Notes: generated by a model not told the origin, from the sequence alone. A DNA stretch of 64,000 bases from an uncultured Mycoplasma sp. (GCA_945947035.1 CAMEXD010000003.1:19760-83759), one strand, 5' to 3'; positions 3,211 to 32,900 are shown, numbered from the stretch's first letter. A program made the numbers and translations.

Positions 3211-4395
3211 CTAATTTGTATTGCCGCGATAGATTTTTATAAAACCTGCACTGCCAGAACCTGGTGTACCTTTTCCTTGATCACCTTCGCCTGTAAGTTT
3301 TCCATTTTTATGGCCAACCCAGATATATCCTGTTGCACCAGCACCTCCAGTATTACTGCCTCCGCTATAGTCAGTTGTACCTCCAGCACCACCGGTTCCA
3401 GATGCACTCCATCGAGTTCCAGTTGTATCATTCATATAAGTAATTCTATCTACTCCAGCACTACCTGATTTCCCATTTGCATTTATATAGTTTCCACCTG
3501 AATCAATACCACCAGTGCCCCCAGAACCAGAGCTAGAAGCGTAATGGGAAGCATCACTACCAGTATTTGCAGAAGTAACAAGCATTGAAGAATAAGATTC
3601 CACAGAACTATTAATATTTGCAGTTGAAGTAACACCTATTGATCCAAGAGAAAATACAATAGTATCTCCTTTATTTAGCATTACTCTTGAACAGGCACAT
3701 CCTCCACCTCCTCCTCCGCCGCCACCATAGGCGTATAATTTTGTGTCAAGATCCTGATAGTCACCATAACCACCATTACCAGAAGCTCCAAATAATTCTA
3801 TTTGAAAATATCCATCTTCCGGAGCAGTCCATGTTTGTGATGTTGTATATGTGTTTATTAAAATATATTCTGTTGGTTCACTTGGAAAAGTTACAACATT
3901 TATATCACTACTTACATTAGATTCTTTGTTATAATTACCACTTTTATCTTGTATTGTATTAGCTTTTAATTTTATATTACCTGTTGTACTTGTTTCACTT
4001 GAAGTTATAGTAATAATATATTTATAACCATTATCTATTTGTTCTTTTTCTATATTACTTATTGTTATATCTCCTGTTACCGTAAAGTTATCGCTTGTTA
4101 AAGTAGTATCAATTACACCAAAATTATCTGTACAATTCATAGTATAATTTGCATTACTATTTATTCCTATTTCAGAGGCATCTGGTCCATCTATTACACA
4201 TGTTGGTCCTTTTAAATCACTATAAACTATTTTAATATTATTTTCTTGTTCTACTTCATAACTAAATAAAGCATATGAAGTCAGTCCTACACATGATAGT
4301 ATTACAAGTATTATCGTTATTAATAAATATTTATTTATTATTTTTACATCGGTTAAGAGGAAATTCTTTAGTTTTTTAACTTGCCCCCCCCCCAT
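3211..4395 (-). CDS. Family member A: signal-anchored protein with an Ig-like middle domain and a glycine-rich C-terminal domain. The reading frame is disconnected from its RBS-served ATG (4414) by a G10 tract.
   Basis: 394-aa ORF. Hydrophobic anchor LLITIILVILSCVGLTSYALFSYE. C-terminal YFQIELFGASGNGG...GGGGGGGGG...GDTIVFSLG...GFIKIYRGNTN. Paralog of 4563..5723 and of the 5' end of 29977..31437. Confidence 0.8.
   Translation of the reverse strand: MGGGQVKKLKNFLLTDVKIINKYLLITIILVILSCVGLTSYALFSYEVEQENNIKIVYSDLKGPTCVIDGPDASEIGINSNANYTMNCTDNFGVIDTTLTSDNFTVTGDITISNIEKEQIDNGYKYIITITSSETSTTGNIKLKANTIQDKSGNYNKESNVSSDINVVTFPSEPTEYILINTYTTSQTWTAPEDGYFQIELFGASGNGGYGDYQDLDTKLYAYGGGGGGGGGCACSRVMLNKGDTIVFSLGSIGVTSTANINSSVESYSSMLVTSANTGSDASHYASSSGSGGTGGIDSGGNYINANGKSGSAGVDRITYMNDTTGTRWSASGTGGAGGTTDYSGGSNTGGAGATGYIWVGHKNGKLTGEGDQGKGTPGSGSAGFIKIYRGNTN
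4384..4393 (-). repeat. Homopolymeric G10 (C10 on plus strand) tract inside the 5' end of gene A
   Basis: Counted directly: ttg-cccccccccc-atatcg. The upstream frame reads MQTKIRYGGGAS-stop. Confidence 0.95.
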
Positions 4396-4414
4396 ATCGA
4401 ATTTTTGTTTGCAT

Positions 4415-4478
4415 TTTTTTATACCTCCATTTTTTTAACACAAAAAAATGTGTTATTTTCTATGAGATTATCATAACA
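4415..4478 (-). promoter_or_regulatory. Shared 5' cassette of gene A: extended -10 (TGTTATGAT), AACACA-N7-TGTGTT palindrome (4437..4454), GGAGGT RBS
   Basis: Conserved with 5724..5786 and 31438..31501. The promoter call comes from the TGnTAnnAT motif only. Confidence 0.5.
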
Positions 4479-4562
4479 GATTTTTATATTTTTTACTATA
4501 TAAATTTATTTTTTAATAATTATATCAAAAAATAAACCAAAAGAAAGAAAAATATTCTTGTT

Positions 4563-5723
4563 TTAATTTGTATTACCACGATATATCTTTATAAAACCAG
4601 ATTTTCCTGAATCTCCTGCATATTTTTCTATATTTGCCGATGAAGTTCCGTCTTTATTATAAACATCTCCACCTTTTCCTCCAACATTTCCACCAGTATA
4701 TCCTGGAGAACCTCCTGATCCTCCTACTGCTCTCGTTGTCCCTGACCATACTATATTTCGTTGTCCAATTAATCCTTTTTCTCCATTAATATTTTGATAA
4801 TTTCCTCCAGAAGCAACTCCACCTTCACCACAAGTATCCATGTGAGCTGTACTTGTGATATCTCCAGCATCTGTTCCACTTGTTGTTTGCATATTTGCAT
4901 ATGTTTCTTTTGAACTTTTAATTACTACCGAAGAAGTAGCACCAACGCCACCAATTGTAAATGTTATTTTATCCCCTTTATTTAACTTCACACGAGAATT
5001 AGCATAAGCTCCACCACCTCCACCATTTCCTCCATTAAAATAATAATGAAAAGGACTGGAAGAAGTATAAGTATGACCCTTGCCTCCGTTTCCACTTGAA
5101 CCGAATAATTCTATTTGAAAATATCCATTTTCTGGAGCAATAAATGTACCAGAACTTGTATACGTATCCATAAACACATATTCTGTTGGTTCTGGTGGAA
5201 AAGTTACAACATTTATATCACTACTTACATTAGATTCTTTGTTATAATTACCACTTTTATCTTGTATTGTATTAGCTTTTAATTTTATATTACCTGTTGT
5301 ACTTGTTTCACTTGAAGTTATAGTAATAATATATTTATAACCATTATCTATTTGTTCTTTTTCTATATTACTTATTGTTATATCTCCTGTTACCGTAAAG
5401 TTATCGCTTGTTAAAGTAGTATCAATTACACCAAAATTATCTGTACAATTCATAGTATAATTTGCATTACTATTTATTCCTATTTCTGATACATCAGGTC
5501 CATCTATTACACATACTGGTCCTTTTAAATCACTATAAACTATTTTTATACTATTTTCTTGTTCTACTTCATAACTAAATAAGGCATATGAAGTTAGTCC
5601 TACAAATGATAGTATTACAAGTATTATCGTTATTAATAAATATTTATTTATTATTTTCACATCGGTTAAGAGGAATCTTCTTAGTTTTTTAGCATACCCA
5701 CCATAGTTAATTTTTGTTTGCAT
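4563..5723 (-). CDS. Family member B: signal-anchored protein with Ig-like and glycine-rich domains, no homopolymer tract
   Basis: 386 aa, MQTKINYGGYAKKLRRFLLTDVKIINKYLLITIILVILSFVGLTSYALFSYE. The first ~185 aa are nearly identical to A. The Gly-rich domain is divergent, and the end GFIKIYRGNTN is the same. Confidence 0.85.
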   Translation of the reverse strand: MQTKINYGGYAKKLRRFLLTDVKIINKYLLITIILVILSFVGLTSYALFSYEVEQENSIKIVYSDLKGPVCVIDGPDVSEIGINSNANYTMNCTDNFGVIDTTLTSDNFTVTGDITISNIEKEQIDNGYKYIITITSSETSTTGNIKLKANTIQDKSGNYNKESNVSSDINVVTFPPEPTEYVFMDTYTSSGTFIAPENGYFQIELFGSSGNGGKGHTYTSSSPFHYYFNGGNGGGGGAYANSRVKLNKGDKITFTIGGVGATSSVVIKSSKETYANMQTTSGTDAGDITSTAHMDTCGEGGVASGGNYQNINGEKGLIGQRNIVWSGTTRAVGGSGGSPGYTGGNVGGKGGDVYNKDGTSSANIEKYAGDSGKSGFIKIYRGNTN

Positions 5724-5786
5724 ATTTTTTGCCTCCGTTTTTTTAACACAGAAAATGTGTTATATTCTTATGAATTAATTCTAACA
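5724..5786 (-). promoter_or_regulatory. Shared 5' cassette of gene B: TGTTAGAAT extended -10, AACACA-N5-TGTGTT palindrome (5745..5761), GGAGGC RBS
   Basis: Alignment with the A and C upstream regions. Confidence 0.5.
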
Positions 5787-7090: not shown

Positions 7091-8044
7091 ATGAAAAAAA
7101 TATTTATTAAATTTACAACTTTTTTATTTATCATATTTTTAATCTATAGTATTTTTACTAAAACAAAAGTTGTTACAAGCTCTATAGAATTTAGTATGAA
7201 CTTATTTTTAAAAAATATTTTTCCTTCACTATTTCCTATGTTTATTTTAACATCTGTTTTAACAGCAATTGGTTTACCTGATTTTCTAGGTAATATTTTT
7301 AATAAACTATGGCATATTTTATTTAAAACTAAAGGTATATCTTCTTTTGTATTTTTTTCATCTATGTTAAGTGGTTTTCCAAGTAGTGGTAGATTAATAA
7401 ATGATCTATTAGATAAAAAATTAATCAATGAGACTGATGCTTCTAAAATGCTTAATTTTACTTTTTTTGCTAATCCTTTATTTGTTATTAATACAGTTGG
7501 TGTTATGTTTTTAAATAATAGAAAAATTGGTATGTTAATTTTATTATCTCATATTTTAGGTAATATTATCGTTGGTATTTTATTTAGAAATTTATATCAA
7601 GATAATGAAAAAATAGAAACTATTAGTTTTAAAAAATCACTTAAACTTTTCAATCAAAAAATAAATAATACCAATATAATAAAAGAGTTTTTAGGAAGTA
7701 TTTCAAAAACTATTATTACTCTTTTAAATGTCTTTGGTATTATTACTTGTTTTATTATTTTAATAAATTTAATTAATATTGATATAAATCCTTTATTTAA
7801 CTCATTATTTAAAGGCATAATAGAGCAAACAACAGGGCTTAAATATCTATCTATGACAAACATCTCTTATGATATAAAAGTATTTCTTTCAACATTTTTA
7901 ATATCATTTGGTGGTTTAAGTATTCACGCTCAAATCTTTAATATTTTAAATAATTATAAAATTAAATATTATCCTTTTTTACTATCAAGAATAATTCATG
8001 CAGGAATCAGTACTTTTATAATTTATATTATTTTAAGCCTATAG
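7091..8044 (+). CDS. ylbJ: Sporulation integral membrane protein YlbJ (nucleoside-recognition domain family)
   Basis: Multi-TM protein with an FPSLFPMFILTSVL motif. Adjacent to the ylbL-like gene, as in Bacillus. Start at MKKIFIKF after AGAGGA. Confidence 0.75.
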   Translation: MKKIFIKFTTFLFIIFLIYSIFTKTKVVTSSIEFSMNLFLKNIFPSLFPMFILTSVLTAIGLPDFLGNIFNKLWHILFKTKGISSFVFFSSMLSGFPSSGRLINDLLDKKLINETDASKMLNFTFFANPLFVINTVGVMFLNNRKIGMLILLSHILGNIIVGILFRNLYQDNEKIETISFKKSLKLFNQKINNTNIIKEFLGSISKTIITLLNVFGIITCFIILINLINIDINPLFNSLFKGIIEQTTGLKYLSMTNISYDIKVFLSTFLISFGGLSIHAQIFNILNNYKIKYYPFLLSRIIHAGISTFIIYIILSL

Positions 8045-8516
8045 GATGAATAATATTTATTCCATAATTTACATCTTTATCAATTTCATGATAAGGAATA
8101 TTTATAATTAAAAACTTGTTATCATCACTTAGTTTTATAGTTATAATGCCATTAATTTCTAAGTATTCTCTTTTTGGGATAGGATATACTTTATTGTTGT
8201 AAGTTATAACAAAAGTACTATAATCGATACTAAATGTTGATTCACTATTATCTGCAAACTTAAATACTGCAGATATAGTTGTATTTGAAGTATCAGTATT
8301 TTTTAATTCTTTAAATTCTCTTTTTATTAAGTCATCACTTATTACTTTAGTTAGTGTAGTTTTATATTCTAAAAGTTCTTTTTCCATAGTAGTTGTAGTA
8401 TTAGAATTTTTTAAGTTAATTATTACATCCATCATACCAAATACTAATATCATAAGCATTACAAAAACTACAATAAATTCAACAACAGATACACCTTTAT
8501 TATTTAATTTTTTCAT
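8028..8516 (-). CDS. Prepilin-type N-terminal cleavage/methylation domain protein (pseudopilin-like)
   Basis: MKKLNNKG|VSVVEFIVVFVMLMIL: a G-x4-E class III signal followed by a hydrophobic helix. Confidence 0.7.
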   Translation of the reverse strand: MKKLNNKGVSVVEFIVVFVMLMILVFGMMDVIINLKNSNTTTTMEKELLEYKTTLTKVISDDLIKREFKELKNTDTSNTTISAVFKFADNSESTFSIDYSTFVITYNNKVYPIPKREYLEINGIITIKLSDDNKFLIINIPYHEIDKDVNYGINIIHPIGLK

Positions 8517-8527
8517 TATTTACCTCC

Positions 8528-9307
8528 TTAACATGGTGATATTGAAAAATTTTCTTTATCATTTTCTGAGATATATTTACGTCTTGTTCTATATAAATTC
8601 ATTTCATTATTGCAACTATCTGTACATGGATAAGTAACTATATAATAATTATCTCCTTCTTGATAACATAATGGATTAGTATCACAATCGGTTGGCTTTG
8701 CTGTTCCATTATTATATAAATTGACTTTTTTATATGATTTTTCACAAACATTACTATCTCCAGTACAAGATTCTACTTGCCAAGAACTCCAATCACTATA
8801 AGTTACAGTTTGACATATTTTGGAATAAAATTGATCACTTGAATAACCCGTTTTTGTTTTAACTGTTAATCTTAAAAGTTCGCCAGTTTCATTATCTTTT
8901 ATATCAAGATAATTTATATATTTACTTAATGGACCTGTATAATTAGTAGGTTTATATTTAGTTATTACAGCATCTGTTATATCATATTGATCTGCAAGTA
9001 ATTGACAAGAAAAATTGCCATAACTATAATTTACAGAACATAATCCATCTTCTACTATTGTTAAGTAATTATCAGAGTTAAGTGTTAAATTAATTCTACT
9101 ACCACCATTATAGAAGTATCTTAATAACATAACTTTTAAATAATAATTAGCGTATAAACTTTCAACATCGTTATACTCTATTCTTTTTTCATACTCTCCT
9201 TTTGTTGGTACAAAATTTGTAAATAAAACTGTAAAGATAACTAAAACAACAACTGCTACTGCTAAAAGTTCAGCCATCATAAATCCCCTATTATTAAATT
9301 TTTTCAA
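8528..9307 (-). CDS. Prepilin-type N-terminal domain protein with a Cys-rich C-terminal domain
   Basis: MKKFNNRG|FMMAELLAVAVVVLVIF. The C-terminal ~100 aa contain about 10 Cys. Confidence 0.7.
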   Translation of the reverse strand: MKKFNNRGFMMAELLAVAVVVLVIFTVLFTNFVPTKGEYEKRIEYNDVESLYANYYLKVMLLRYFYNGGSRINLTLNSDNYLTIVEDGLCSVNYSYGNFSCQLLADQYDITDAVITKYKPTNYTGPLSKYINYLDIKDNETGELLRLTVKTKTGYSSDQFYSKICQTVTYSDWSSWQVESCTGDSNVCEKSYKKVNLYNNGTAKPTDCDTNPLCYQEGDNYYIVTYPCTDSCNNEMNLYRTRRKYISENDKENFSISPC

Positions 9308-9413
9308 AAATAAACACCCTCTATCTACTTGATTATATTACATTTTTATTATATAATAAAAAATAGATAAATACTAGAATAATTTTAAAAAAAATAAAAA
9401 GGGGCAATTATTT

Positions 9414-11147
9414 ATGAGAGAATTTGATTTTGCAACAGTTCCAATTGTTGACATAGTAAATGATATCATTATTGATGGTGCAACTAAAAATGCCAGTGAT
9501 ATCCATTTTGATCCTGCTGAAAAATATTTAAAAATTAGAATGCGTATTGATGGTGAATTAAGAGATTATGCTATTGTTGAAAATAAATATAAAAGAAATT
9601 TAACTACTAGAGTTAAGCTTTTAGCAGGTATGAATATTACTGAATCTAGACTTCCTCAAGATGGTGCGATAAAAAGTAATATTAATGGCAAAGATTTGGA
9701 TTTGCGTGTTGCTGCTCTTCCTACTAGCTTTGGTGAAAAAATTGTTATTCGTATTTTAGATTATACTATGAGTTTTGAAGGTATTGAAGCTCTTGGATTT
9801 ACTAAAGAAAACTATGAAATAATAAAAGAAATGCTTGCTAATCCTAATGGTATTATTCTAGTAACAGGTGCAACTGGTAGTGGTAAATCAACTACAGTTT
9901 ATTCTATGCTTCAAAGACTTAACAATGAAGGTACTAATATTATAACAGTTGAAGACCCAGTTGAAATGAATATCGAAGGTATTAATCAAGTTCAAGTAAA
10001 TTCTGAAATTGGTCTTGATTTTGCAACTGTTTTAAGATCAATTTTAAGAGAGGACCCTAATGTTATATTAATCGGAGAAATAAGAGATAGCGAAACTGCT
10101 AAAATAGCAATTAGAGCATCTATTACAGGACATCTTGTTTTATCTACAATCCATACTAATAACTCTCTTACAACTATTGAAAGACTTTTGGATATGGATG
10201 TTGAAAGATATTTGCTTTCTACTTCTTTAAAAGGAATAATATCTCAAACTCTTGCTAAAAGATTATGTCCAAATTGTAAAAAGAAACGTGCTACTACTGT
10301 TGCTGAAAAACGTATTTTTAAAAAAGCCTTAGATAAGGATATCGATTATATCTATGAACCTAGTAATGGTTGTCCAAATTGTCGTGGTGGTTATAAAGGA
10401 AGAATTGCTCTTCAAGAAGTTTTGTTAATTAACGATGAAATAAGAGATGCAATTAATGAAAATAAAAGACGTGCTGAACTTCGTAGTATGATTTATAAAA
10501 AAGGCGTTAAAACATTATTCCAAGATGGACTTTTAAAAGTAATTGATGGTATTACTACTATGGAAGAAGTATTTAGATTAGTTGATGTAGATGATGATCT
10601 AGATAATATCTATGGTAAAGATGAATCTATGGAAAACGATGTGAAGGAAATTATTGAAAAACAATTAAAGGAAAAGGGCATAGAAAAAGAAAATAATGAT
10701 AATATAACAAATAATTTAATAGAAAATACTTTAGATAATAACAAAATTGTAAAAATTAATGAACCAAAAGAGAATAATTATGATATTAAATTAGATAATT
10801 TTGATAATTTCTTTGATAATATTGAAAATAAAACAATAAATAATGTTAATAAACAACCTATTTATGAAGAAAAAAAACAAACAGATAATTCTATAAATGA
10901 TTTCATAAATAATATTGATAAAGTTGAAAATGGAAATATTAATAATGATAATTTCGATAAATTCTTTATTGATACCAATAATAATAATTTAAATGAATCA
11001 AATAAAACAAATTATCAAAACAATAATAATTTAAATAATCCAGTTGTTGAAAATAATCAAAATGAAAAAGAAGAACAAAAAGAAAGCACTTCATCTAGTT
11101 ATACTGATGATTTAATCAATTTAATTAATCAAGGATTTTTCGAATAA
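9414..11147 (+). CDS. GspE/PilB/ComGA-family secretion ATPase with a ~190-aa Asn/Asp/Lys-rich C-terminal extension
   Basis: Walker A GATGSGKST, an Asp box, a His box, and tetra-Cys CPNC...CPNC. The tail contains DNFDNFF / DNFDKFF / INDFINN repeats. Confidence 0.9.
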   Translation: MREFDFATVPIVDIVNDIIIDGATKNASDIHFDPAEKYLKIRMRIDGELRDYAIVENKYKRNLTTRVKLLAGMNITESRLPQDGAIKSNINGKDLDLRVAALPTSFGEKIVIRILDYTMSFEGIEALGFTKENYEIIKEMLANPNGIILVTGATGSGKSTTVYSMLQRLNNEGTNIITVEDPVEMNIEGINQVQVNSEIGLDFATVLRSILREDPNVILIGEIRDSETAKIAIRASITGHLVLSTIHTNNSLTTIERLLDMDVERYLLSTSLKGIISQTLAKRLCPNCKKKRATTVAEKRIFKKALDKDIDYIYEPSNGCPNCRGGYKGRIALQEVLLINDEIRDAINENKRRAELRSMIYKKGVKTLFQDGLLKVIDGITTMEEVFRLVDVDDDLDNIYGKDESMENDVKEIIEKQLKEKGIEKENNDNITNNLIENTLDNNKIVKINEPKENNYDIKLDNFDNFFDNIENKTINNVNKQPIYEEKKQTDNSINDFINNIDKVENGNINNDNFDKFFIDTNNNNLNESNKTNYQNNNNLNNPVVENNQNEKEEQKESTSSSYTDDLINLINQGFFE

Positions 11148-14341: not shown

Positions 14342-15259
14342 TTATAAAATTGCATCTAATTCTTTTTTTGTTAATCCTGTACAAGATAATATTACATTAG
14401 GTTCAATTCCTTGAATAAACATATTTTTTGCTATTTCTAATCTTTGATTTTTTGCTCCTTGTTTTAATCCTCTTTCTTCTCCCCTTTTTTCTCCTCTTTC
14501 TTGTCCTATTTTTTCTGCATATGCTAGTCTTGCCTTTCTTTCATATTCTTCCATATATTCGGCATCATATAATCCTACAATTGTTTCATTTTGCGATAAT
14601 TCTTTTATCTTTTCTTCTGCTTCCATTAGATCTTTATCATCTCCTACTATTTCTCTTATTTTTTTTGGATCATCTTCTACAAGTAGTAATAATTCTTTTT
14701 CAAATTTTGTTAACTCATGGTTATTATAACACTTTTTCTTTACATTGGAAAGGTTTATATGATATTTTTCTATTTGTTTATTTTCTATTATTCCTCTTTC
14801 TACATCTGCCATCATAAATTTTATTACTATTCTATCATCAAACTTATTAAACAAATTAAAATTAATTTGAATTACCTTTTTAACATCAAGATATCCTTCA
14901 CCATTTTTAAATTGTTCTTCTAAAAGTTTACTTTGATAGGCATTATTTTTCTCAAATAATCCATCATAATAATACTTATTCATTTCAATATTTATTCTAT
15001 TATCCAATACATCCATTATTATATCGGTTTTCATTTTCTTTCCATTATAATGCTTTATGGGAAGTTCATTATTTAAGATAATTATGTTTTCTTTTATTAC
15101 TTCTTTTGGTATTTTTATTATATTTGATAATAAATCTGATGAATAATTTAAGCAAGACTTAGAAGTAAATAATGCTTTAAAAATTGGATCAAAACTTGCT
15201 GGAATATATTTTATTCCATTTTTTACTAATATAATCCGTTTACTTGTTAATTCTATCAT
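14342..15259 (-). CDS. Rpn-family recombination-promoting nuclease / PD-(D/E)XK putative transposase
   Basis: Family-typical N-terminus IPASFDPIFKALF and a charged C-terminal repeat region ending NMFIQGIEPNVILSCTGLTKKELDAIL. Start at MIELTS after GGAGGTGA. Confidence 0.7.
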   Translation of the reverse strand: MIELTSKRIILVKNGIKYIPASFDPIFKALFTSKSCLNYSSDLLSNIIKIPKEVIKENIIILNNELPIKHYNGKKMKTDIIMDVLDNRINIEMNKYYYDGLFEKNNAYQSKLLEEQFKNGEGYLDVKKVIQINFNLFNKFDDRIVIKFMMADVERGIIENKQIEKYHINLSNVKKKCYNNHELTKFEKELLLLVEDDPKKIREIVGDDKDLMEAEEKIKELSQNETIVGLYDAEYMEEYERKARLAYAEKIGQERGEKRGEERGLKQGAKNQRLEIAKNMFIQGIEPNVILSCTGLTKKELDAIL

Positions 15260-15530
15260 ATAATCACCTCCATTTCGTTTATAGATAGAAGAAACAAGTG
15301 CTATTAAAACATAATCATTTTTTACTTGCAAATTTATAAAATGTAAAATTTAACTAAAAAATCGCCCCAAAAACTAAAATTTCCCTAGAGCAAAAATTAA
15401 AATTTAAGAAAAAAAGTGCTTCAAATTTTAAAAATTACCCCTTTTTTCATAAAATTTAAGAAATTTCCGACAAATATCGATATTTTAAGACAAAATTTGA
15501 CACATTTTTAGTACTTTTTTTTTAAAAAAT

Positions 15531-15560: not shown

Positions 15561-15719
15561 AGACCTTTTTAACCTAACTTAATTATACATAGTCATATTT
15601 TTGTATTGTTCTTTTAAATTATCTTTTCGCATACTTTTATCTCCATTTTTAAACACTAAAAAAATGGGTTATATTTTATAAATTAATTTTAACATTTTAT
15701 TTGTTTTTGTCTACAAAAT

Positions 15720-26860: not shown

Positions 26861-27154
26861 TTGTCGAATTATGTCATTATTTTTGGTACGATTATATCTT
26901 ACTAAAATAATAATCTTATGTTAGTATATATAGCGATTTCTAAATTAATTAGAAATCAATAACATCTTTTTTACACATCGAAAGATAAATATAATTATTT
27001 ATCTAAAAAAAATTAATACTATGTTATTTTATCATACAACAAAAATTTTTTATGTTATCTCCTTCTTAAAAACAAAACCTTTAGACACTTCAACAACCTA
27101 TTTTATAGTATTAATTTTTTATAGATTTTAGATTACTCTAAAATCTATTTTTTT
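26861..27154 (+). ncRNA. Non-coding module 2 of the tandem pair (candidate small RNA gene)
   Basis: Same start motif 272 nt downstream of module 1. Hairpin GATTTCTAA-N5-TTAGAAATC (26935..26957). Terminator TAGATTTTA-N8-TAAAATCTA-T7 (27122..27154). Confidence 0.35.
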
Positions 27155-28118
27155 ATATTTTAGTAAGAAACATTTCCATACCTAGTTTTTTATCTATAGA
27201 ACCACTTTTTATACTGATATCAAGTTCACTTAATTCTTTTAAATATTTAAGTAATTTGTTTTTATCATAAGCGTATGCTTCTTCTTTTAATTTCATTAAC
27301 CTGTAAGGTTTTTTGATTTTAAATATAGTCATAAGTTCATTATCTGTTTTTACTTTTACTAATATTTTTAATTTATATAGTAATCTAAAGGTATTAGCTA
27401 GAGTTGCTATTATTTTTAATTCATCTTCTTTATTATCAATTAATTCATAATATATTTCAAATATTTTTTTATAATTTTTTTCATCAATTGCTTTTATAAA
27501 ATCAAAGATATTTTTATCAAATCCTTTTTTTACTATACTTTTAATATCATCTGTTGTTATTTCTTTTTCTTCTTGTTTTAGCATTTTTAATTTATTTATC
27601 TCTTGAACTATTTTATAATAATTATAATTAGTATATTCTTTTAACATATTTAAAGCTCTAAAGTCTATTTTATATCCCTTTAATTCTTCTTTTACAAAAC
27701 TATCAATATTAGTATTTGATGTATCTATTACTTTACCATTTTGTCTTATTAGTTTTACTATTTTTTTTCTTTCATCAACTTTTAAAGCAGTTAAAATAAG
27801 GATATTGTCATCTTTACTTTTTTCTAAGTAATTTATTAATTCTTTATTTTTTTCTGATGTCTTTTCTTTTATTTGTTTTTGTTCTTCTTCATCTAATTCT
27901 TCTTTCTCCTCTTCATCTTTTTCTAGTTTTTCAAAAGAATTAACCACAACTATTTTTTTACTAGAAAATAAATCCACTGTATTTAATTCATCAATTACCT
28001 TAAAAATTGAATCTTCTTCTAAATCATATTTAATCAAAGAATAATCTGTTTCTTGTTTTAATATTTTATCTATTTCTAAATTTATTAAAGATTTTTCTCC
28101 TAAAATAAGATATGTCAT
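27153..28118 (-). CDS. holA: DNA polymerase III delta subunit (HolA)
   Basis: N-terminal YLILGEKSLINLEIDKIL...LFSSKKIVVV pattern and length. Contains an acidic insert EKDEEEKEELDEEEQ. Confidence 0.7.
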   Translation of the reverse strand: MTYLILGEKSLINLEIDKILKQETDYSLIKYDLEEDSIFKVIDELNTVDLFSSKKIVVVNSFEKLEKDEEEKEELDEEEQKQIKEKTSEKNKELINYLEKSKDDNILILTALKVDERKKIVKLIRQNGKVIDTSNTNIDSFVKEELKGYKIDFRALNMLKEYTNYNYYKIVQEINKLKMLKQEEKEITTDDIKSIVKKGFDKNIFDFIKAIDEKNYKKIFEIYYELIDNKEDELKIIATLANTFRLLYKLKILVKVKTDNELMTIFKIKKPYRLMKLKEEAYAYDKNKLLKYLKELSELDISIKSGSIDKKLGMEMFLTKI

Positions 28119-28141
28119 AAAAACCACCTATAAATAGTATA

Positions 28142-28828
28142 CTAAATTTTTATGACATTTTTAAGTTTTTTTATTACTTTTTTTTCTATTCTAGAAATAT
28201 AAGATTGACTTATTTGTAATTTTTCTGCAACATCTTTTTGAGTCATTTCATTAACTCCATTTAAGCCATATCTTAAAACCATTATTTCCTTGTCTCTTTT
28301 GTCTAATTTATCTAATTCTTCTTTCAATATTTTTTTATCTATTTCCATATCTAAATCTTTAGTTACAATATCAGGATCTGTTCCTAAAACATCTTCTAAA
28401 TGTAATTCGTTACCATCTGCATCAAAACTTAAGCTTTCTTCAAAAGATACATCTCCTTTTGTTTTTTTATTTTTTCTTAAAAACATTAATATTTCATTAT
28501 CTATACATCGAGAACAATATGTTGCAAGTTTAATATTTTTTCCTCTTTTATAAGTATTGATACCTTTTATTAAACCAATACTTCCAATACTTACTAAATC
28601 TTCTAAATCAATATTAGTATTTTCATATTTTTTTGCAAGAAATACAACAAGTCTTAAATTATGTTCAATAAGCTTATCTCTTGCTTGTTTGTTCCCTTGT
28701 TCTTTTTCAATTATGTATTTTTCCTCTTCTTCTTTTTCTAAAGGTGGTGGTAAAGCATCAGCACTTCCAACATAATAAATACCATCTTTTGTAAAAAACT
28801 GCTTAATAAATTCTAATAATTTTTTCAT
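28142..28828 (-). CDS. sigE: Sporulation sigma factor SigE (pro-sigma-E)
   Basis: YYVGSADALPPPL...NLRLVVFLAKKYENTNIDLEDLVSIGSIGLIKGINTY...ISQSYISRIEKK. Overlaps spoIIGA by 4 nt. Confidence 0.92.
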   Translation of the reverse strand: MKKLLEFIKQFFTKDGIYYVGSADALPPPLEKEEEEKYIIEKEQGNKQARDKLIEHNLRLVVFLAKKYENTNIDLEDLVSIGSIGLIKGINTYKRGKNIKLATYCSRCIDNEILMFLRKNKKTKGDVSFEESLSFDADGNELHLEDVLGTDPDIVTKDLDMEIDKKILKEELDKLDKRDKEIMVLRYGLNGVNEMTQKDVAEKLQISQSYISRIEKKVIKKLKNVIKI

Positions 28829-29613
28829 ATCTCCTCCATTATTTTTCCATTTAATATAATATCAGTATTTGATAAACTAAATTTGTCGTTTGATATTCCT
28901 ATTAAATAATTATATTTAAATCCAACGTTTTCAATAAATATCTTAGGAATAATAAAACAATCTAATAAACCATCATTATTTAATGATTTATAAGGAACTA
29001 AAACTTTTTTACAACTAGAAAAATCAATATCAATATCTTTATTTAAAATAGAAATAGGTTTATTAAGATAAGGATCACATAAAGTATTACCTGAGTCTAA
29101 AAATCCATTTAAAATATATTCTTTATCATTTAGATAAATTACAACTTTATAATTTGAATTAATGTGTTTTTTTAACTTCTTTATCTGTTTTTCATAAATT
29201 GCAATTACTAAAATAGCAATAAGTATTAAAATAAGCATATTTAAACCATCATTATTTTTTATAAATACCATGCCAATATGTTCATACCCAACTTCAATAT
29301 TTAACATATATAAAAAACCACCAATTAGAATACTAAGAATCATTAAATATAAAAAATTATTTAAAGTATATTTTATATCTTTATAAGAAAATGTCATTAT
29401 TAACATTAAAAGGCCAAATAATATTTTTAAAAAAGTAAATAGTAAATTTGGCATACTTATAAATAAAATAAAAATAGAAAAAGCTCCAAAAATACTACCA
29501 ATTAATATTTTAAAAAACTTTACATTTCTTTTTAAAATAATATTTATTCCAAGTAAAATAATAAAATCAAAGATTAAATTTATAAAAAATATATAATCTA
29601 AATATACCTTCAT
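28825..29613 (-). CDS. spoIIGA: Sigma-E processing peptidase SpoIIGA
   Basis: MKVYLDYIFFINLIFDFIILLG, five TM segments, and the aspartic protease motif FLDSGNTL. Confidence 0.9.
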   Translation of the reverse strand: MKVYLDYIFFINLIFDFIILLGINIILKRNVKFFKILIGSIFGAFSIFILFISMPNLLFTFLKILFGLLMLIMTFSYKDIKYTLNNFLYLMILSILIGGFLYMLNIEVGYEHIGMVFIKNNDGLNMLILILIAILVIAIYEKQIKKLKKHINSNYKVVIYLNDKEYILNGFLDSGNTLCDPYLNKPISILNKDIDIDFSSCKKVLVPYKSLNNDGLLDCFIIPKIFIENVGFKYNYLIGISNDKFSLSNTDIILNGKIMEEI

Positions 29614-29976: not shown

Positions 29977-31437
29977 TTAGTTAATTGTGACTGAAAGACG
30001 AGAACCATAATTCGTAGCGCTGTTGCCATTGCTGCTGCTGAAGTAGAAAACACCCGCACCGCCAGCATTACCACAGTAGCCTCCACGAAGGAACCACGGA
30101 AAGTTAGAAGTAACGAAGGACGCGGAATCGCCATACCATTTTTTCGTCTCCGTTAACGCATGTTGTAATCCTGCATTTGTATAATCACTTTGTGTTGTAT
30201 ATACATTATAATATTTTGTATTTGGTAATGTTGTAAATTGAGAACCACCTGCTGTATTATTGTAATTACCCATTACGTATTCATATGCTCCACCACTCAT
30301 GTCATATACACCATAGATATTTCCTGTTGTTGAGGCATCCATTCCTAAACTTGTATTATATGCTCCATTTGTTACAGTAGATGCACTTCCAGCAGGTGCT
30401 CCATATCCTGTTATATAACTTGAATTATTATTTATTCCTACTTCACTGCAACTTGTTGATGAACTACATCTACCATAGATACTTTGTGTTAGGTATGCTA
30501 CTGCACCCCATTCATTATTTTTTAACATATGGGTATCTAGGGTTGTATCAATTGTTTTATCAAATCCATATTGGTTTCCACTATCAGCCATTTTTTGAAT
30601 ATCACCAAAGAATGTTGATACACTTGCTCCTCTCCAAATTGTTGCATTTGGTAATACTTTTGGTCTTATTGATGTTAGATTGCATCCTGCTCCTACGTCA
30701 GAACTACTTGCTGGTTCACATGATACATTACTTGAATTTTCAAATTTTCCTATCCAAAATCCTGATACTGTTCCTCCAAAATCAAATGCATCATTGGCTG
30801 TTGTATCTTTATTTACAAATGTTATATTAAATGCTCCTGGTGCAGCTTGTGTTCCCCCATTATAATTTGCAGTATCTCCAGTTGCACTAAATCTTGGTAT
30901 CCATACTAACATTGTGTTTATTACTTCCATTGGTATTATTGTGCCTACTTCTGAATTTACATAATCTTCTCTTGTACATGTACCATCACATGATTTTATC
31001 GTTCCATCATTTAAAGTTATTTCTGTTGTTGTATTACTATCACTTACTGTTACTGCATTAGCCCATACTTTATCACTATAGCTATACCATTTATATCCTT
31101 TTTTAGTATTATTTACATCTGCTTTTCGCCATACTTCTCTTTCACTATCATAACATACTGGTATCATATTAGTTGGTAATGAATTTTTAGGATTATTGGC
31201 ATTACTTGTATCTTGGCTAATTGTATCACAATAATATGGTGGATTATATACTATTCTTATACTACCACTTGACTCTGTTTCATAACTAAATAATGCATAT
31301 GAAGTTAGTCCTACACATGATAGTATGACAAGTATTATCGTTATTAATAAATATTTATTAATTGCTTTTACATCGGTTAAGAGGAAGTTCTTTAATTTTT
31401 TAACTTGCCCCCCCCCATATCGAATTTTGGTTTGCAT
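29977..31437 (-). CDS. Family member C: same leader/signal as A and B, fused to a different (FGE-sulfatase/C-type-lectin-fold-like) extracellular domain. The G9 tract is in frame.
   Basis: MQTKIRYGGGQVKKLKNFLLTDVKAINKYLLITIILVILSCVGLTSYALFSYE, then unrelated sequence with GFWIGKFE, NNEWGAVAYL, GVYDMSGGAYEYVMGNY and FLRGGY...GSRLSV. The track's MEVEK extension overlaps the RBS GGAGGT. Confidence 0.8.
   Translation of the reverse strand: MQTKIRYGGGQVKKLKNFLLTDVKAINKYLLITIILVILSCVGLTSYALFSYETESSGSIRIVYNPPYYCDTISQDTSNANNPKNSLPTNMIPVCYDSEREVWRKADVNNTKKGYKWYSYSDKVWANAVTVSDSNTTTEITLNDGTIKSCDGTCTREDYVNSEVGTIIPMEVINTMLVWIPRFSATGDTANYNGGTQAAPGAFNITFVNKDTTANDAFDFGGTVSGFWIGKFENSSNVSCEPASSSDVGAGCNLTSIRPKVLPNATIWRGASVSTFFGDIQKMADSGNQYGFDKTIDTTLDTHMLKNNEWGAVAYLTQSIYGRCSSSTSCSEVGINNNSSYITGYGAPAGSASTVTNGAYNTSLGMDASTTGNIYGVYDMSGGAYEYVMGNYNNTAGGSQFTTLPNTKYYNVYTTQSDYTNAGLQHALTETKKWYGDSASFVTSNFPWFLRGGYCGNAGGAGVFYFSSSNGNSATNYGSRLSVTIN
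31408..31416 (-). repeat. Homopolymeric G9 (C9 on plus strand) tract in the 5' end of gene C
   Basis: Counted directly: cttg-ccccccccc-atatcg. Confidence 0.95.
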
Positions 31438-31501
31438 TTTTTCTACCTCCATTTTTTTAACACAAAAAAATGTGTTATATTCTTATGAATTAATTCTAAC
31501 A
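31438..31501 (-). promoter_or_regulatory. Shared 5' cassette of gene C: TGTTAGAAT extended -10 (31493..31501), AACACA-N6-TGTGTT palindrome (31459..31476), GGAGGT RBS
   Basis: About 90% identical to the A and B upstream leaders. Similarity stops at about 31500. Confidence 0.5.
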
Positions 31502-31559
31502 CATTTTTATTATTTGTGTCTATCATTTATCTTTAATTTTGGTGATTTTAAGTTTATTT

Positions 31560-32900
31560 TTAAATTTCATTTACTAATTTTTTAAATTCATCGCCACGTT
31601 CTTCACATCTATTATATTGATCCCATGAAGCACTCGCAGGACTAAGTAAGACTACATCATTTTTTTTCATTATTTCTTTTATTTTAGGAAAACTTTCTTT
31701 TAATGTTTCAAAAATATAAGTATCAATTTTATTATTTTTTCCAAATTCTTCTACTCTTTTTCTAGTTTCACCAATACCTATTATAGCTTTAACATTTTTC
31801 ATAAATGGTTTTAGTTCTTCAAAATCTTGACCTCTTTCATATCCACCAAGTATTATAATTGTAGGTTCGTTAAATGCATTTAAAGCAATCTGAGTACATT
31901 TTATATTAGTTGCTTCTGTATCATTGTAAAACAAAACACCATCTTTTTCTCTTACAAATTCTAATCTATGTTCAACTCCATTAAAGTTTTCTAAAACATC
32001 TATTATACTTTTTGTACTACAATCAAAACATTTTACTGCAGTAATTGCTGCCATTATATTTTCATAATTATGTATTCCTCTAAGTTTTACATCTTTAACA
32101 TCAATTATTTTTTCATCTTCATAAAATATAGCATCATTTTCTAAATAACAATTAGCTTTTTCTTTACTAGAAAACCATTTTTTTATTGATTTTGCATTTT
32201 CACTAAATTTAACTATTTCAGGATCATTTAAATTTAAAATACAAATATCATTATTTTGTTGATTAATTAATATTTTGCTTTTTAAATACTTATAGTAATC
32301 ATAGGTTTTAAAAAACTCTAAATGAGCTTCACTTATATTAGTGATAACTGCAACATCAGGATTAAATTTATGTAAATTTTCTAATTGTTGACTTGATACT
32401 TCCATGACAATAATATCATTTTCTTTTAGCTTTTCTAAAATACTGCATAAAGGATATCCGATATTACCTGCTAAAAGAACAGGTTTTTGATTTTTTTTTA
32501 GCATTTGATAAATTAAGGTTGTTGTTGTTGTTTTACCATTTGTTCCAGTTATTCCAATAATTTTAATATTCTTATCTTTAGGAATAAGTGAATATGCAAG
32601 TTCAACTTCATTAATAACATCAATATTAAGTTCTTTTGCTTTTAAAACATATTTATGATCAATTGGAACACCTGGATTTTTTATAAGATGAGAAAAACTA
32701 TTATCTAATAAATCATCTGGATGACTTCCTAAAACAAACTCTACTCCTAAAGCTTTTAATTCATCATATTTTTCATTATCAATTTTATCAATTGTTTTAC
32801 TATCATTTATTATTACTTCGCAATTTCTTTTTATTAAAACTTTAGCAGCCTCATAACCACTTTTTGCAAATCCTAAAATTAATACTTTTTTATAATCCAT
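31560..32900 (-). CDS. murD: UDP-N-acetylmuramoyl-L-alanine--D-glutamate ligase
   Basis: ILGFAKSGYEAAKVL and GITGTNGKTTTTTL; Mur ligase domains. Confidence 0.93.
   Translation of the reverse strand: MDYKKVLILGFAKSGYEAAKVLIKRNCEVIINDSKTIDKIDNEKYDELKALGVEFVLGSHPDDLLDNSFSHLIKNPGVPIDHKYVLKAKELNIDVINEVELAYSLIPKDKNIKIIGITGTNGKTTTTTLIYQMLKKNQKPVLLAGNIGYPLCSILEKLKENDIIVMEVSSQQLENLHKFNPDVAVITNISEAHLEFFKTYDYYKYLKSKILINQQNNDICILNLNDPEIVKFSENAKSIKKWFSSKEKANCYLENDAIFYEDEKIIDVKDVKLRGIHNYENIMAAITAVKCFDCSTKSIIDVLENFNGVEHRLEFVREKDGVLFYNDTEATNIKCTQIALNAFNEPTIIILGGYERGQDFEELKPFMKNVKAIIGIGETRKRVEEFGKNNKIDTYIFETLKESFPKIKEIMKKNDVVLLSPASASWDQYNRCEERGDEFKKLVNEI

What the first reader, a model, noticed from the sequence alone, without database searches (positions are those of the whole stretch)
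31408..31437. The same leader with a G9 tract is in frame at a distant locus (phase-ON paralog C)
Gene C, about 26 kb away between murD and spoIIGA, has the identical start MQTKIRY-GGG-QVKKLKNFLLTDVK, with 9 G keeping the RBS-served ATG (31437) in frame. The window therefore holds two independently switchable copies in opposite states, plus one copy (B) whose tract is broken up. This is the combinatorial ON/OFF pattern expected for a phase-variable surface repertoire. The cargo domain of C is entirely different from that of A and B, so the switch is attached to the leader and not to a particular protein.
Basis: partly seen in the sequence, partly recalled or inferred. Interest (0 to 1): 0.7.

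Follow-up and report, generated by a model that had tools for sequence, protein, structure and literature searches.

The report
Poly-G frameshift switch in secretion leader
A run of nine G's sits seven codons into a secreted-protein gene of a very AT-rich gut bacterium and keeps it in frame, while sister copies here and in relatives carry 8, 9 or 10 G's, the classic signature of a slip-prone on/off switch, so this is a real but familiar kind of phase-variable gene.

Summary
On the minus strand, ATG 31437-31435 (GGAGG 8 nt upstream) is followed by six codons and a G9 run (31416-31408), and it opens a 486-aa ORF ending at 29977, between murD and spoIIGA. The window is 24.3% G+C. Its only G/C runs longer than 5 nt are this G9 and the G10 in the same leader at 4384-4393 (locus A). 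GGG makes up 3.5% of Gly codons.

A cassette of about 260 bp is shared by loci A, B and C. It holds a promoter-like site, a small hairpin, the RBS, the leader and a hydrophobic signal/anchor. Cargo homology between C and A/B stops after residue 64.

Relatives carry the tract at the same leader position with different lengths:
- G8 in MAG SUG1322.
- G10 in the gene for P0005.
- G9 or G10 in a more distant clade (51-55% cargo identity).
- Decayed forms: G5AG in L026, and GGTGGG in B and L009.

Two caveats remain. No read-level data were available. In every G10 copy, an ATG overlapping the tract restores the frame, so "OFF" may be leaky.

It is a new member of a known kind, comparable to Neisseria opa, Gardnerella nanH3 and Listeria inlA.

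The parts
31493..31522 (-). Promoter-like site TAGACA-18 nt-TAGAAT with a TG extension, at the start of the shared cassette
   Evidence: best match in the region, 10 of 12 with TG. The -10 region through the RBS is 77-88% identical among A, B and C, while sequence further upstream is only 39-55% identical.
31458..31477 (-). Small 5'-UTR hairpin, core AACACA-T7-GTGTT (the predicted 7-bp stem also takes the flanking U and A)
   Evidence: One search shows a 7-bp stem. The whole 87-nt fold is not significant (z = -0.99). The hairpin is present in A, B, C, L002, L009 and L026. Hairpins of different sequence sit at the same place in L014, L015 and L018. Function unknown.
31446..31450 (-). Shine-Dalgarno GGAGG, 8 nt before the ATG
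   Evidence: Read directly from the sequence.
31435..31437 (-). Start codon ATG1 of gene C
31408..31416 (-). G9 homopolymer (codons 8-10, GGG GGG GGG), the proposed slipped-strand switch, here in the in-frame (ON) length
   Evidence: It is one of only two G/C runs longer than 5 nt in the 64 kb window. GGG is 3.5% of Gly codons.
31288..31356 (-). Hydrophobic core of the leader (KYLLITIILVILSCVGLTSYALF), either a signal peptide or an N-terminal anchor
   Evidence: The post-tract leader is 88-93% identical in DNA among A, B and C. The (V/I)G(L/Y)(T/S)SYALFS motif is conserved in many homologues. Cleavage was not tested.
29977..31437 (-). Gene C, 486 aa: leader plus a roughly 420-aa cargo domain of unknown function
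   Evidence: One search gives the ORF. One search finds 6291 homologues. Pfam FGE-sulfatase scores E=0.016, below the cutoff. The AF2 model has pLDDT 60, and the best PDB fold hit is the DGR variable protein TaqVP at E=0.15, not significant.
4384..4393 (-). G10 tract in the same leader at locus A. It is out of frame from ATG1 (4414-4412), giving MQTKIRYGGGAS-stop, and in frame from the overlapping ATG2 (4395-4393).
3211..4414 (-). Locus A gene: leader plus Ig-like domain plus glycine-rich domain
   Evidence: 67% identical to B. The 9-residue poly-Gly inside the cargo is encoded ggtggcggcggaggaggaggtggagga, with no long G run.
4563..5723 (-). Locus B gene, same cassette with the tract interrupted (TAT GGT GGG TAT GCT), a fixed in-frame copy
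   Evidence: The identical interrupted leader is present in MAG SUG1322 (L009) and in P0239.
15626..15713 (-). Degenerate fourth copy of the promoter and 5'-UTR part of the cassette. It drives only a 17-codon ORF and is followed by a PD-(D/E)XK transposase-family gene.
   Evidence: (81% over 93 nt).

Best explanation
Gene C is one member of a small family of contingency (phase-variable) genes. A shared cassette of about 260 bp supplies a promoter, a 5' UTR, a strong RBS, a 7-codon N-terminus, a poly-G tract and a hydrophobic secretion leader. This cassette is fused to different extracytoplasmic cargo domains at dispersed chromosomal sites.

During replication the G run gains or loses a G by slipped-strand mispairing. 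With 3n G's (here 9), ribosomes starting at the RBS-served ATG read through into the leader and cargo, which is the ON state. With 3n+1 or 3n+2 G's they stop after 12-14 codons, which is the OFF state or much reduced expression. Each copy switches independently, so a clonal population carries mixed combinations of these exported proteins. In this assembly C is ON, A (G10) is off-frame, and B is a locked-ON copy whose tract has been broken by substitutions.

Shown directly: the tract, the frames, the cassette, the codon and composition anomaly, and the conservation and length differences among assemblies.

Inferred: the slippage itself, its rate and reversibility, export or surface location, and what selective agent (host immunity, phage or niche) drives it.
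For: - In-frame G9 and a 486-aa ORF with GGAGG 8 nt upstream.
- The only two G/C runs of 6 nt or longer in 64 kb at 24.3% G+C are this G9 and the G10 at the same codon position of paralog A. 6.6e-4 runs of 9 or more are expected from base composition.
- GGG is 3.5% of Gly codons, yet three GGG codons stand in a row. A 9-Gly stretch inside A's cargo avoids any long G run.
- The cassette is shared by A, B and C, with a sharp loss of similarity on both sides.
- Close relatives at the same leader position: L002 (MAG SUG1322) has G8 and is out of frame. The P0005 gene call reads ...CKQKFDMGGGQVKK, which is the G10 frame. L026 has G5AG and L009 has GGTGGG.
- A more distant clade (cargo 51-55% identical, leader DNA well diverged) keeps a perfect tract at the same place: L014 G10 is out of frame, L015 and L016 G9 are in frame.
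- P0260 (leader 44% identical) again has GGG at residues 8-10.
- All three frame classes are therefore seen among 7 tract-bearing copies.
- Experimental precedents for 5' coding homopolymer switches in Gram-positives: Gardnerella nanH3, poly-C of 8-14 next to the signal peptide (10.1101/2020.09.16.300947), and Listeria inlA, 5' poly-A (PMC2831843).
Against: - No reads were available, so length heterogeneity within one population is unproven. Differences among assemblies could partly be homopolymer miscalls or fixed differences.
- L015 and L016 may be the same strain.
- A complete five-domain MutS is encoded next to locus A, so mismatch repair is probably active and would damp slippage rates. 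It does not abolish them in Neisseria or Haemophilus (own knowledge).
- In every G10 copy an ATG overlapping the tract restores the frame, so 3n+1 may not be fully OFF.
- In the sister clade with a promoter G tract, 7 of 8 loci have the same length, G8, so not every G tract in this family is visibly variable.
- Surface location rests on the leader alone. No sortase, lipobox or wall-anchor motif was found.
Confidence: 0.75

Rival explanations
1. The tract is real but static. The differences (G10 in A, G8 or G10 in relatives) are homopolymer miscalls in MAG or long-read assemblies, or fixed pseudogenising frameshifts. C is simply an ordinary intact gene with a Gly-Gly-Gly in its N-terminus.
For: All data are consensus assemblies and no reads were seen. 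The L025 G9 promoter variant lies at a contig end. L026 shows that family members do decay, with a nonsense codon after the leader.
Against: Off-frame lengths occur in four independent assemblies and two divergent clades. A perfect G run is preserved where the flanking codons have diverged. Three GGG codons in a row have a chance of about 4e-5 given 3.5% GGG usage, and this recurs in separate lineages. The MEGAHIT-style (k141) contig names of L014 and SUG1322 suggest short-read assemblies, which have low homopolymer error at 8-10 nt (own knowledge).
Confidence: 0.1
2. Expression is set at the RNA or translation level rather than by heritable DNA slippage. RNA polymerase stutters on the G9/G10 template, or ribosomes shift on GGG GGG GGG, so every allele yields a fixed mix of in-frame and out-of-frame products. 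The overlapping ATG rescues 3n+1 alleles.
For: Runs of 9 or more identical bases are known sites of transcriptional slippage (own knowledge). An ATG overlapping the first G is conserved in both clades (TATG-Gn and AATG-Gn) and is in frame in every G10 copy.
Against: It does not explain why DNA lengths differ among assemblies. ATG2 has no Shine-Dalgarno sequence at a usable distance, since GGAGG lies about 27 nt upstream. This reading is not exclusive of DNA-level phase variation.
Confidence: 0.1
3. The G run is selected for a role unrelated to switching, for example a flexible Gly3 hinge in the signal-peptide n-region, or a G-rich protein- or RNA-binding site.
For: GGG at residues 8-10 recurs at protein level in divergent leaders (P0001, P0020, P0260). 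The sister clade keeps a mostly constant G8 in its promoter.
Against: B, L009, L026 and P0240, and most homologues, do without Gly3. A peptide requirement would use the preferred GGA or GGT codons. Four of the 7 tract-bearing copies are frameshifted relative to ATG1.
Confidence: 0.05

Closest known systems
Neisseria opa genes (about 11 dispersed paralogs in N. gonorrhoeae, each phase-variable; PMC11868660. That the repeat is a CTCTT pentamer in the signal-peptide coding region is from my own knowledge.)
   Same: There are several dispersed paralogs. Each carries a slippage-prone repeat inside the leader-peptide coding region downstream of a constitutive promoter and RBS. ON/OFF switching is translational and independent for each copy, giving combinatorial expression of exported proteins.
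   Different: The repeat here is a homopolymer G tract, not a pentamer. The host is a low-GC Bacillota gut organism. The cargo domains are unrelated to the Opa beta-barrel and unrelated to each other (C versus A/B). No sequence homology exists.
Gardnerella nanH3 poly-C tract (10.1101/2020.09.16.300947)
   Same: The host is Gram-positive. A G/C homopolymer of 8-14 nt lies in the 5' coding region next to the signal peptide of an exported protein. Lengths 9 and 12 are ON and other lengths truncate the product.
   Different: In nanH3 the tract follows the signal peptide, about 100 nt into the gene. Here it precedes the hydrophobic core, at codons 8-10.
Listeria monocytogenes inlA 5' poly(A) tract (PMC2831843)
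   Same: The host is a Bacillota species. A homopolymer within the first codons of a surface-protein gene gives an 8-aa truncated product when out of frame. Reversion was measured at about 1000 times the point-mutation rate.
   Different: The Listeria tract is poly-A in an AT-rich genome, and so much less of a compositional outlier. It is a single locus.
Campylobacter jejuni poly-G phasome (PMC6321876, PMC8437040)
   Same: The genome is low in G+C. Poly-G/C tracts of about 8-13 nt are rare compositional outliers, confined to a set of contingency genes that mostly affect the cell surface.
   Different: Campylobacter lacks MutS/MutL mismatch repair (own knowledge), whereas this window encodes a complete MutS. 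Its tracts are usually internal to enzyme genes rather than part of a shared leader cassette.
Mycoplasma variable lipoprotein families (Vlp, Vsp, Vpma; PMC2268961 for Vpma. The Vlp promoter poly-A is from my own knowledge.)
   Same: A conserved 5' region (promoter, UTR, signal peptide) is reused in front of divergent mature regions. The sister clade's G tract in the promoter spacer (L017 and others) resembles the Vlp poly-A spacer switch.
   Different: These leaders are not lipoprotein signals. The Cys in LSCVGL is Phe in B and Ser, Ile or Val in relatives. No recombinase or inversion system is involved.

Membership tests
Simple-sequence-repeat (homopolymer) translational phase-variable / contingency locus | A mononucleotide G/C tract of about 7 nt or more inside the ORF, near its 5' end | tested here: met
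   G9 occupies codons 8-10 at 31408-31416.
Simple-sequence-repeat (homopolymer) translational phase-variable / contingency locus | A change of +/-1 repeat unit toggles between the full-length and a truncated product | tested here: met
   In silico, G9 gives 486 aa, G10 (as in A) gives MQTKIRYGGGAS-stop, and G8 (as in L002) gives MQTKIQYGGGKLKN-stop. Caveat: ATG2 restores the frame in the G10 state.
Simple-sequence-repeat (homopolymer) translational phase-variable / contingency locus | The tract is over-represented relative to genome composition and codon usage | tested here: met
   Runs of 6-8 nt: none. Runs of 9 and 10 nt: one each. Expected number of runs of 9 or more: 6.6e-4. GGG is 3.5% of Gly codons.
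Simple-sequence-repeat (homopolymer) translational phase-variable / contingency locus | Tract length is polymorphic among strains or relatives at the homologous position | tested here: met
   Seven tract-bearing copies from two clades show G8 (L002), G9 (C, L015, L016) and G10 (A, P0005, L014). Decayed alleles occur in B, L009 and L026.
Simple-sequence-repeat (homopolymer) translational phase-variable / contingency locus | Length heterogeneity within a clonal population, with high-frequency reversible switching | not testable with these tools
   No reads or cultures were available. The window's own contig is not in the contig index.
Neisseria Opa family | Homologous Opa beta-barrel cargo with a CTCTT pentamer repeat in the leader | tested here: not met
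   The repeat is a homopolymer. The cargo has no Opa domain in Pfam. The comparison is an analogy of logic only.
Bacterial lipoprotein signal (as in Mycoplasma variable lipoproteins) | A conserved lipobox Cys at the end of the hydrophobic region | tested here: not met
   The Cys in LSCVGL (A, C) is Phe in B and Ser, Ile or Val in many homologues.
SipW-cognate (TasA-type) signal peptide, NCBIfam TIGR04088 | A match to the curated signal-peptide model | tested here: not met
   The ncbifam scan at E<=1 gave no such hit for A, B, C or three homologues. The resemblance of ...TSYALFSY... to that class rests only on my recollection.
FGE-sulfatase / C-type-lectin-like fold (cargo of C) | A Pfam PF03781 match above the gathering score, or a significant structural match | tested here: inconclusive
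   Pfam scores 15.3 bits against a cutoff of 23.3 (E=0.016), covering only residues 368-408. The AF2 model has pLDDT 60. Foldseek's best hit is TaqVP at E=0.15, probability 0.25. The PDB profile search found nothing.
Promoter-spacer homopolymer switch (Bordetella fim, Mycoplasma vlp type), considered for the sister clade only | A tract between the -35 and -10 boxes whose length varies among strains | tested here: inconclusive
   TTGACA-ACCT-G8-TGTTTTA-TATAAT is found in L017, L022-L024 and L027-L029. G9 appears only in L025, at a contig end, although L025 encodes the identical protein (P0089) as L024.

The most novel reading that the evidence does not exclude
The cassette is a portable, three-state expression module. 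The ATG that overlaps the first G (TATG-Gn or AATG-Gn, conserved in both tract-bearing clades) makes 3n+1 tracts encode a shortened but complete leader (MGGGQVKK...). This would be translated weakly, by re-initiation after the 12-codon upstream ORF. 3n would then be high, 3n+1 low and 3n+2 off. The whole promoter-leader-signal unit has been recombined onto unrelated cargo domains at conserved chromosomal slots (upstream of mutS, downstream of spoIIR, downstream of murD) in a lineage of uncultured gut Bacilli. A sister clade has moved the G tract into the promoter spacer.
Probability: 0.2. Interest if true: 0.6.

Novelty: new member of a known kind. Interest (0 to 1): 0.45.

Why it matters
Homopolymer contingency loci are textbook biology in Neisseria, Haemophilus, Campylobacter and Helicobacter. 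They are poorly documented in commensal, uncultured low-GC Bacillota of the gut, where known phase variation is dominated by invertible promoters.

This family offers a compact, recognisable marker: a leader with a Gn tract on swappable cargo. That marker could be counted directly in metagenomic reads to follow ON/OFF states of exported proteins in vivo.

It also warns annotators. Several of these genes are called with wrong or truncated starts, for example P0005, P0122 and locus A.

Tried and rejected
- Exact-protein contig look-ups for the window's gene C and for P0005 failed because they are not indexed. Neither the source genome nor P0005's DNA could be read.
- The metagenome-contig scan with the leader pattern returned only two chance hits in an unrelated GC-richer contig.
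- The genome-contig scan gave 2 true hits (SUG1322) among 11.
- A 65-aa leader-only query in the search for homologous proteins collected just 2 candidates. The exhaustive representative search did better.
- Rfam found nothing near the site.
- The 5'-UTR fold is not significant.
- NCBIfam gave no signal-peptide class and only a sub-threshold MAG1140_fam hit.
- The structure prediction of C was mediocre (pLDDT 60). Foldseek and the PDB profile search gave no significant match, so cargo function stays unknown.
- I considered and rejected a lipoprotein signal, because the Cys is not conserved.
- I rejected a type IV pilin signal for these leaders, because there is no G-F/V-T/S-x-x-E motif. True pilin-like genes lie at 8028-9307.
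- I considered the promoter-spacer G8 of the sister clade as independent proof of hypervariability. It is nearly constant (7 of 8), so I do not count it as such.

Full report
**Observation**

On the minus strand the sequence reads GGAGG (31450-31446), 8 nt, then ATG (31437-31435) CAA ACC AAA ATT CGA TAT, then GGG GGG GGG (31416-31408), then CAA GTT AAA AAA TTA AAG AAC TTC CTC TTA ACC GAT GTA AAA. The frame from this ATG stays open for 486 codons to the stop at 29977. The mechanical ORF list extends it five codons further, to an ATG at 31452 that lies within the RBS.

Pfam confirms the neighbours: murD (31560-32900) upstream, then spoIIGA (28825-29613), a sigma factor (28142-28828) and holA (27153-28127) downstream. 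The stated coordinates and the in-frame claim are correct.

**Is it more than chance?**

The window is 24.3% G+C. G/C runs of length 4, 5, 6-8, 9 and 10 occur 28, 5, 0, 1 and 1 times. The two long runs are this tract and the G10 at 4384-4393 in the same leader of locus A.

Base composition predicts 6.6e-4 runs of 9 or more. Window shuffles give 0.04 matches to G8, against 5 overlapping matches observed.

Among 930 Gly codons in 49 long ORFs, GGG accounts for 3.5%. A nine-glycine stretch inside A's cargo is written ggtggcggcggaggaggaggtggagga. The genome therefore avoids long G runs even where it needs poly-Gly. The leader tract is not a by-product of coding for glycine.

**The cassette**

Aligning the three loci shows a shared block. 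It begins at an extended -10 (TGT-TAGAAT, with TAGACA 18 nt upstream in C). It runs through a small hairpin (core AACACA-T7-GTGTT), the RBS, MQTKI(R/N)Y, the tract, and the hydrophobic leader ...KYLLITIILVILSCVGLTSYALFSYE.

- Identity is 77-88% from promoter to RBS.
- Identity is 88-93% in the post-tract leader.
- Identity is only 39-55% further upstream, and 40-65% after about codon 64.

At protein level, C and B align only over residues 1-64 (80% identity). A and B are 67% identical throughout: an Ig-like domain followed by a glycine-rich domain.

A fourth, degenerate copy of the promoter/UTR part lies at 15626-15713. It drives only a 17-codon ORF and sits next to a PD-(D/E)XK transposase-family gene.

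**States within the window**

| Locus | Tract | Reading from ATG1 | Note |
|---|---|---|---|
| C | G9 | MQTKIRYGGGQVKK... (ON) | 486 aa |
| A | G10 | MQTKIRYGGGAS-stop | ATG at 4395-4393, whose G is the first G of the tract, is in frame and gives MGGGQVKK... plus the complete leader and cargo (394 aa) |
| B | TAT GGT GGG TAT GCT | in frame | no slippery run |

**Relatives**

This lineage is rare in the databases. The window's own contig and P0005's contig were not retrievable, and the JGI metagenome scan gave only chance hits. The informative loci were these.

| Source | Tract at the leader position | Frame and cargo |
|---|---|---|
| L002 (MAG "bacterium SUG1322") | G8 | Stop after 14 codons; A/B-type cargo; NCBI annotated only a partial protein from a downstream start (P0122) |
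| L009 (same MAG) | B-type interrupted leader, base-for-base | In frame |
| P0005 (700 aa, C-type cargo, another assembly) | G10 state | Called through ...CKQKFDMGGGQVKKIRNFLLTDVK |
| L026 | ATG AAA ACA AAA ATT CAT ATG GGG GAG CAA (G5AG) | In frame; C-type cargo broken by a TAA after ...SYEV |
| L014 (cargo 51-55% identical, leader DNA clearly diverged) | ATGGCAAACAAATATTCGCGTAAT-G10-T7 | Out of frame from the RBS-served ATG; in frame from the overlapping ATG |
| L015 and L016 (same clade as L014) | ATGACAAACAAACATTCGTGTAAT-G9 | In frame |
| P0260 (from the exhaustive search of 1.84 billion representatives) | MQTNIRQGGGPLNKLK... (GGG at residues 8-10, DNA not seen) | Leader 44% identical |
| P0240 (same search) | ...HEGGQ... 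(no Gly3) | Not determined |

Many leaders lack the N-terminal extension and the tract altogether.

Among seven tract-bearing copies in two clades, the lengths are G8 once, G9 three times and G10 three times. All three frame classes are represented. Several independent decayed or locked alleles also exist.

**Mechanism**

The best-supported reading is slipped-strand mispairing at the G tract. This gives translational ON/OFF phase variation of an exported protein, with independent switching at each paralog. Experimentally established equivalents exist.

- Gardnerella nanH3 has a poly-C of 8-14 adjoining the signal-peptide region, with 9 and 12 ON. Its heterogeneity was shown within single-colony clone libraries (10.1101/2020.09.16.300947).
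- Listeria inlA has a 5' poly-A whose slippage was measured at about 1000 times the point-mutation rate (PMC2831843).
- The multi-paralog logic matches Neisseria opa, with 11 phase-variable copies in one gonococcal strain (PMC11868660). That the opa repeat lies in the leader is from my own knowledge.

The steps not shown here are slippage within a population, its rate and reversibility, and export. A complete MutS lies beside locus A, so rates are probably moderated by mismatch repair.

An ATG overlapping the first G is present in all tract-bearing leaders (TATG-Gn or AATG-Gn). It restores the frame in every G10 copy: A, P0005 and L014. It has no Shine-Dalgarno sequence at a usable distance, so I treat 3n+1 as OFF or low. 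Re-initiation after the short upstream ORF, whose stop lies 17 nt downstream of ATG2 in A, could give a third, weak state. This is inference only.

**Cargo function**

Cargo function remains unknown.

- C's family is large, with 6291 hits, and has no Pfam domain above threshold.
- A sub-threshold FGE-sulfatase match and a non-significant Foldseek hit to a DGR variable protein both hint at a C-type-lectin-like ligand-binding fold. Neither is evidence on its own.
- The PDB profile search was empty.
- The leader is not a lipoprotein signal, because the Cys is not conserved. It did not match the curated SipW-type signal model.

**Side observation on the family**

An abundant sister clade in gut metagenomes has leaders of the form MKNFIKFLKTD(V/I)K..., without the extension. 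It carries TTGACA-ACCT-G8-TGTTTTA-TATAAT about 60 nt upstream of the start, at two conserved slots: after spoIIR and before mutS.

Seven of eight loci have G8. One has G9, at a contig end, although it encodes the identical protein. This suggests a promoter-spacer version of the same idea, but variability there is not established.

The slots themselves recur. The window's A/B pair sits just upstream of mutS, as do L022-L025. L002, L017 and L027-L029 sit after spoIIR.

**Verdict**

It is a new member of a well-known kind, and of moderate interest. The most useful follow-up is a read-level tract census.

Noticed in passing
window 4393-4395 and 31416-31418; L014 3001-3003: An ATG overlapping the first G of the tract (TATG-Gn or AATG-Gn) is conserved in both tract-bearing clades. 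It is in frame with the cargo in every G10 copy (A, P0005, L014), so the 3n+1 state may be a weak alternative start rather than a null.
   Followed up: partly
L017 1925-1965; L022-L024 near 544; L025 1-40; L027-L029 near 544: A sister clade of the same protein family has a G8 run between a perfect TTGACA and TATAAT (19-nt spacer), about 60 nt upstream of the start, at two different chromosomal slots. Seven of 8 loci have G8. One has G9, at a contig end, although it encodes the identical protein. This may be a promoter-spacer switch, but it is not shown to vary.
   Followed up: partly
window 15626-15713 (-) and 14342-15331 (-): A degenerate fourth copy of the cassette's promoter, hairpin and RBS drives only a 17-codon ORF (MRKDNLKEQYKNMTMYN). 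It is followed by a terminator-like hairpin and a PD-(D/E)XK (PDDEXK_2) transposase-family gene. It may be a slot whose cargo was lost or replaced.
   Followed up: partly
L026 6001-6724: A close relative has the leader with a decayed tract (ATG GGG GAG) on C-type cargo. A TAA replaces the GAA codon right after ...SYEV, so the gene is split. It may be a pseudogene or a sequencing error.
   Followed up: no
window 31458-31477, 4437-4456, about 5745-5765; L014, L015 and L018 upstream regions: A short hairpin sits between the -10 box and the RBS in all cassette copies. More distant relatives have hairpins of different sequence at the same place (CACAT/ATGTG and GCAC/GTGC). It may be an mRNA 5' stabiliser or an operator. 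The fold is not statistically significant on its own.
   Followed up: partly
L002 (contig end 330 nt after the ATG) and L009 (contig end 349 nt after the ATG): Both SUG1322 contigs break shortly after the leader. This is consistent with the cassette plus Ig-domain being a multi-copy repeat that fragments short-read assemblies, so copy number in such MAGs is likely under-counted.
   Followed up: no
window 3211-5723 with mutS 524-3067; L022-L025; L002, L017, L027-L029: Family members occupy recurrent chromosomal slots across species: immediately upstream of mutS and immediately downstream of spoIIR. The cargo type differs between species at the same slot. In L022-L025 the downstream MutS call is only a 53-aa MutS_I fragment.
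   Followed up: partly
window 8028-11147: A type IV pilus or competence-like cluster lies next to the A/B locus. It comprises two genes with pilin-type N-termini (one a weak TadE-like Pfam hit) and a T2SSE/PilB-type ATPase (E=4e-123).
   Followed up: partly
window 3211-3760 and 4563-5110 (Gly-rich halves of A and B): The glycine-rich C-terminal domain of A and B (weak PF21722 Gly_rich_2 match) has many homologues of 220-520 aa that lack the leader. Their N-termini (MANISTITYNG..., MIIGKAITAGGSG...) look like those of phage structural proteins to me. The cargo may have a phage tail-fibre-like origin.
   Followed up: no
window 32491-32499: A T9 run on the plus strand (A9 in the coding strand) lies inside murD. 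In a genome this AT-rich it is probably chance. It would serve as a control tract in a read-level slippage census.
   Followed up: no
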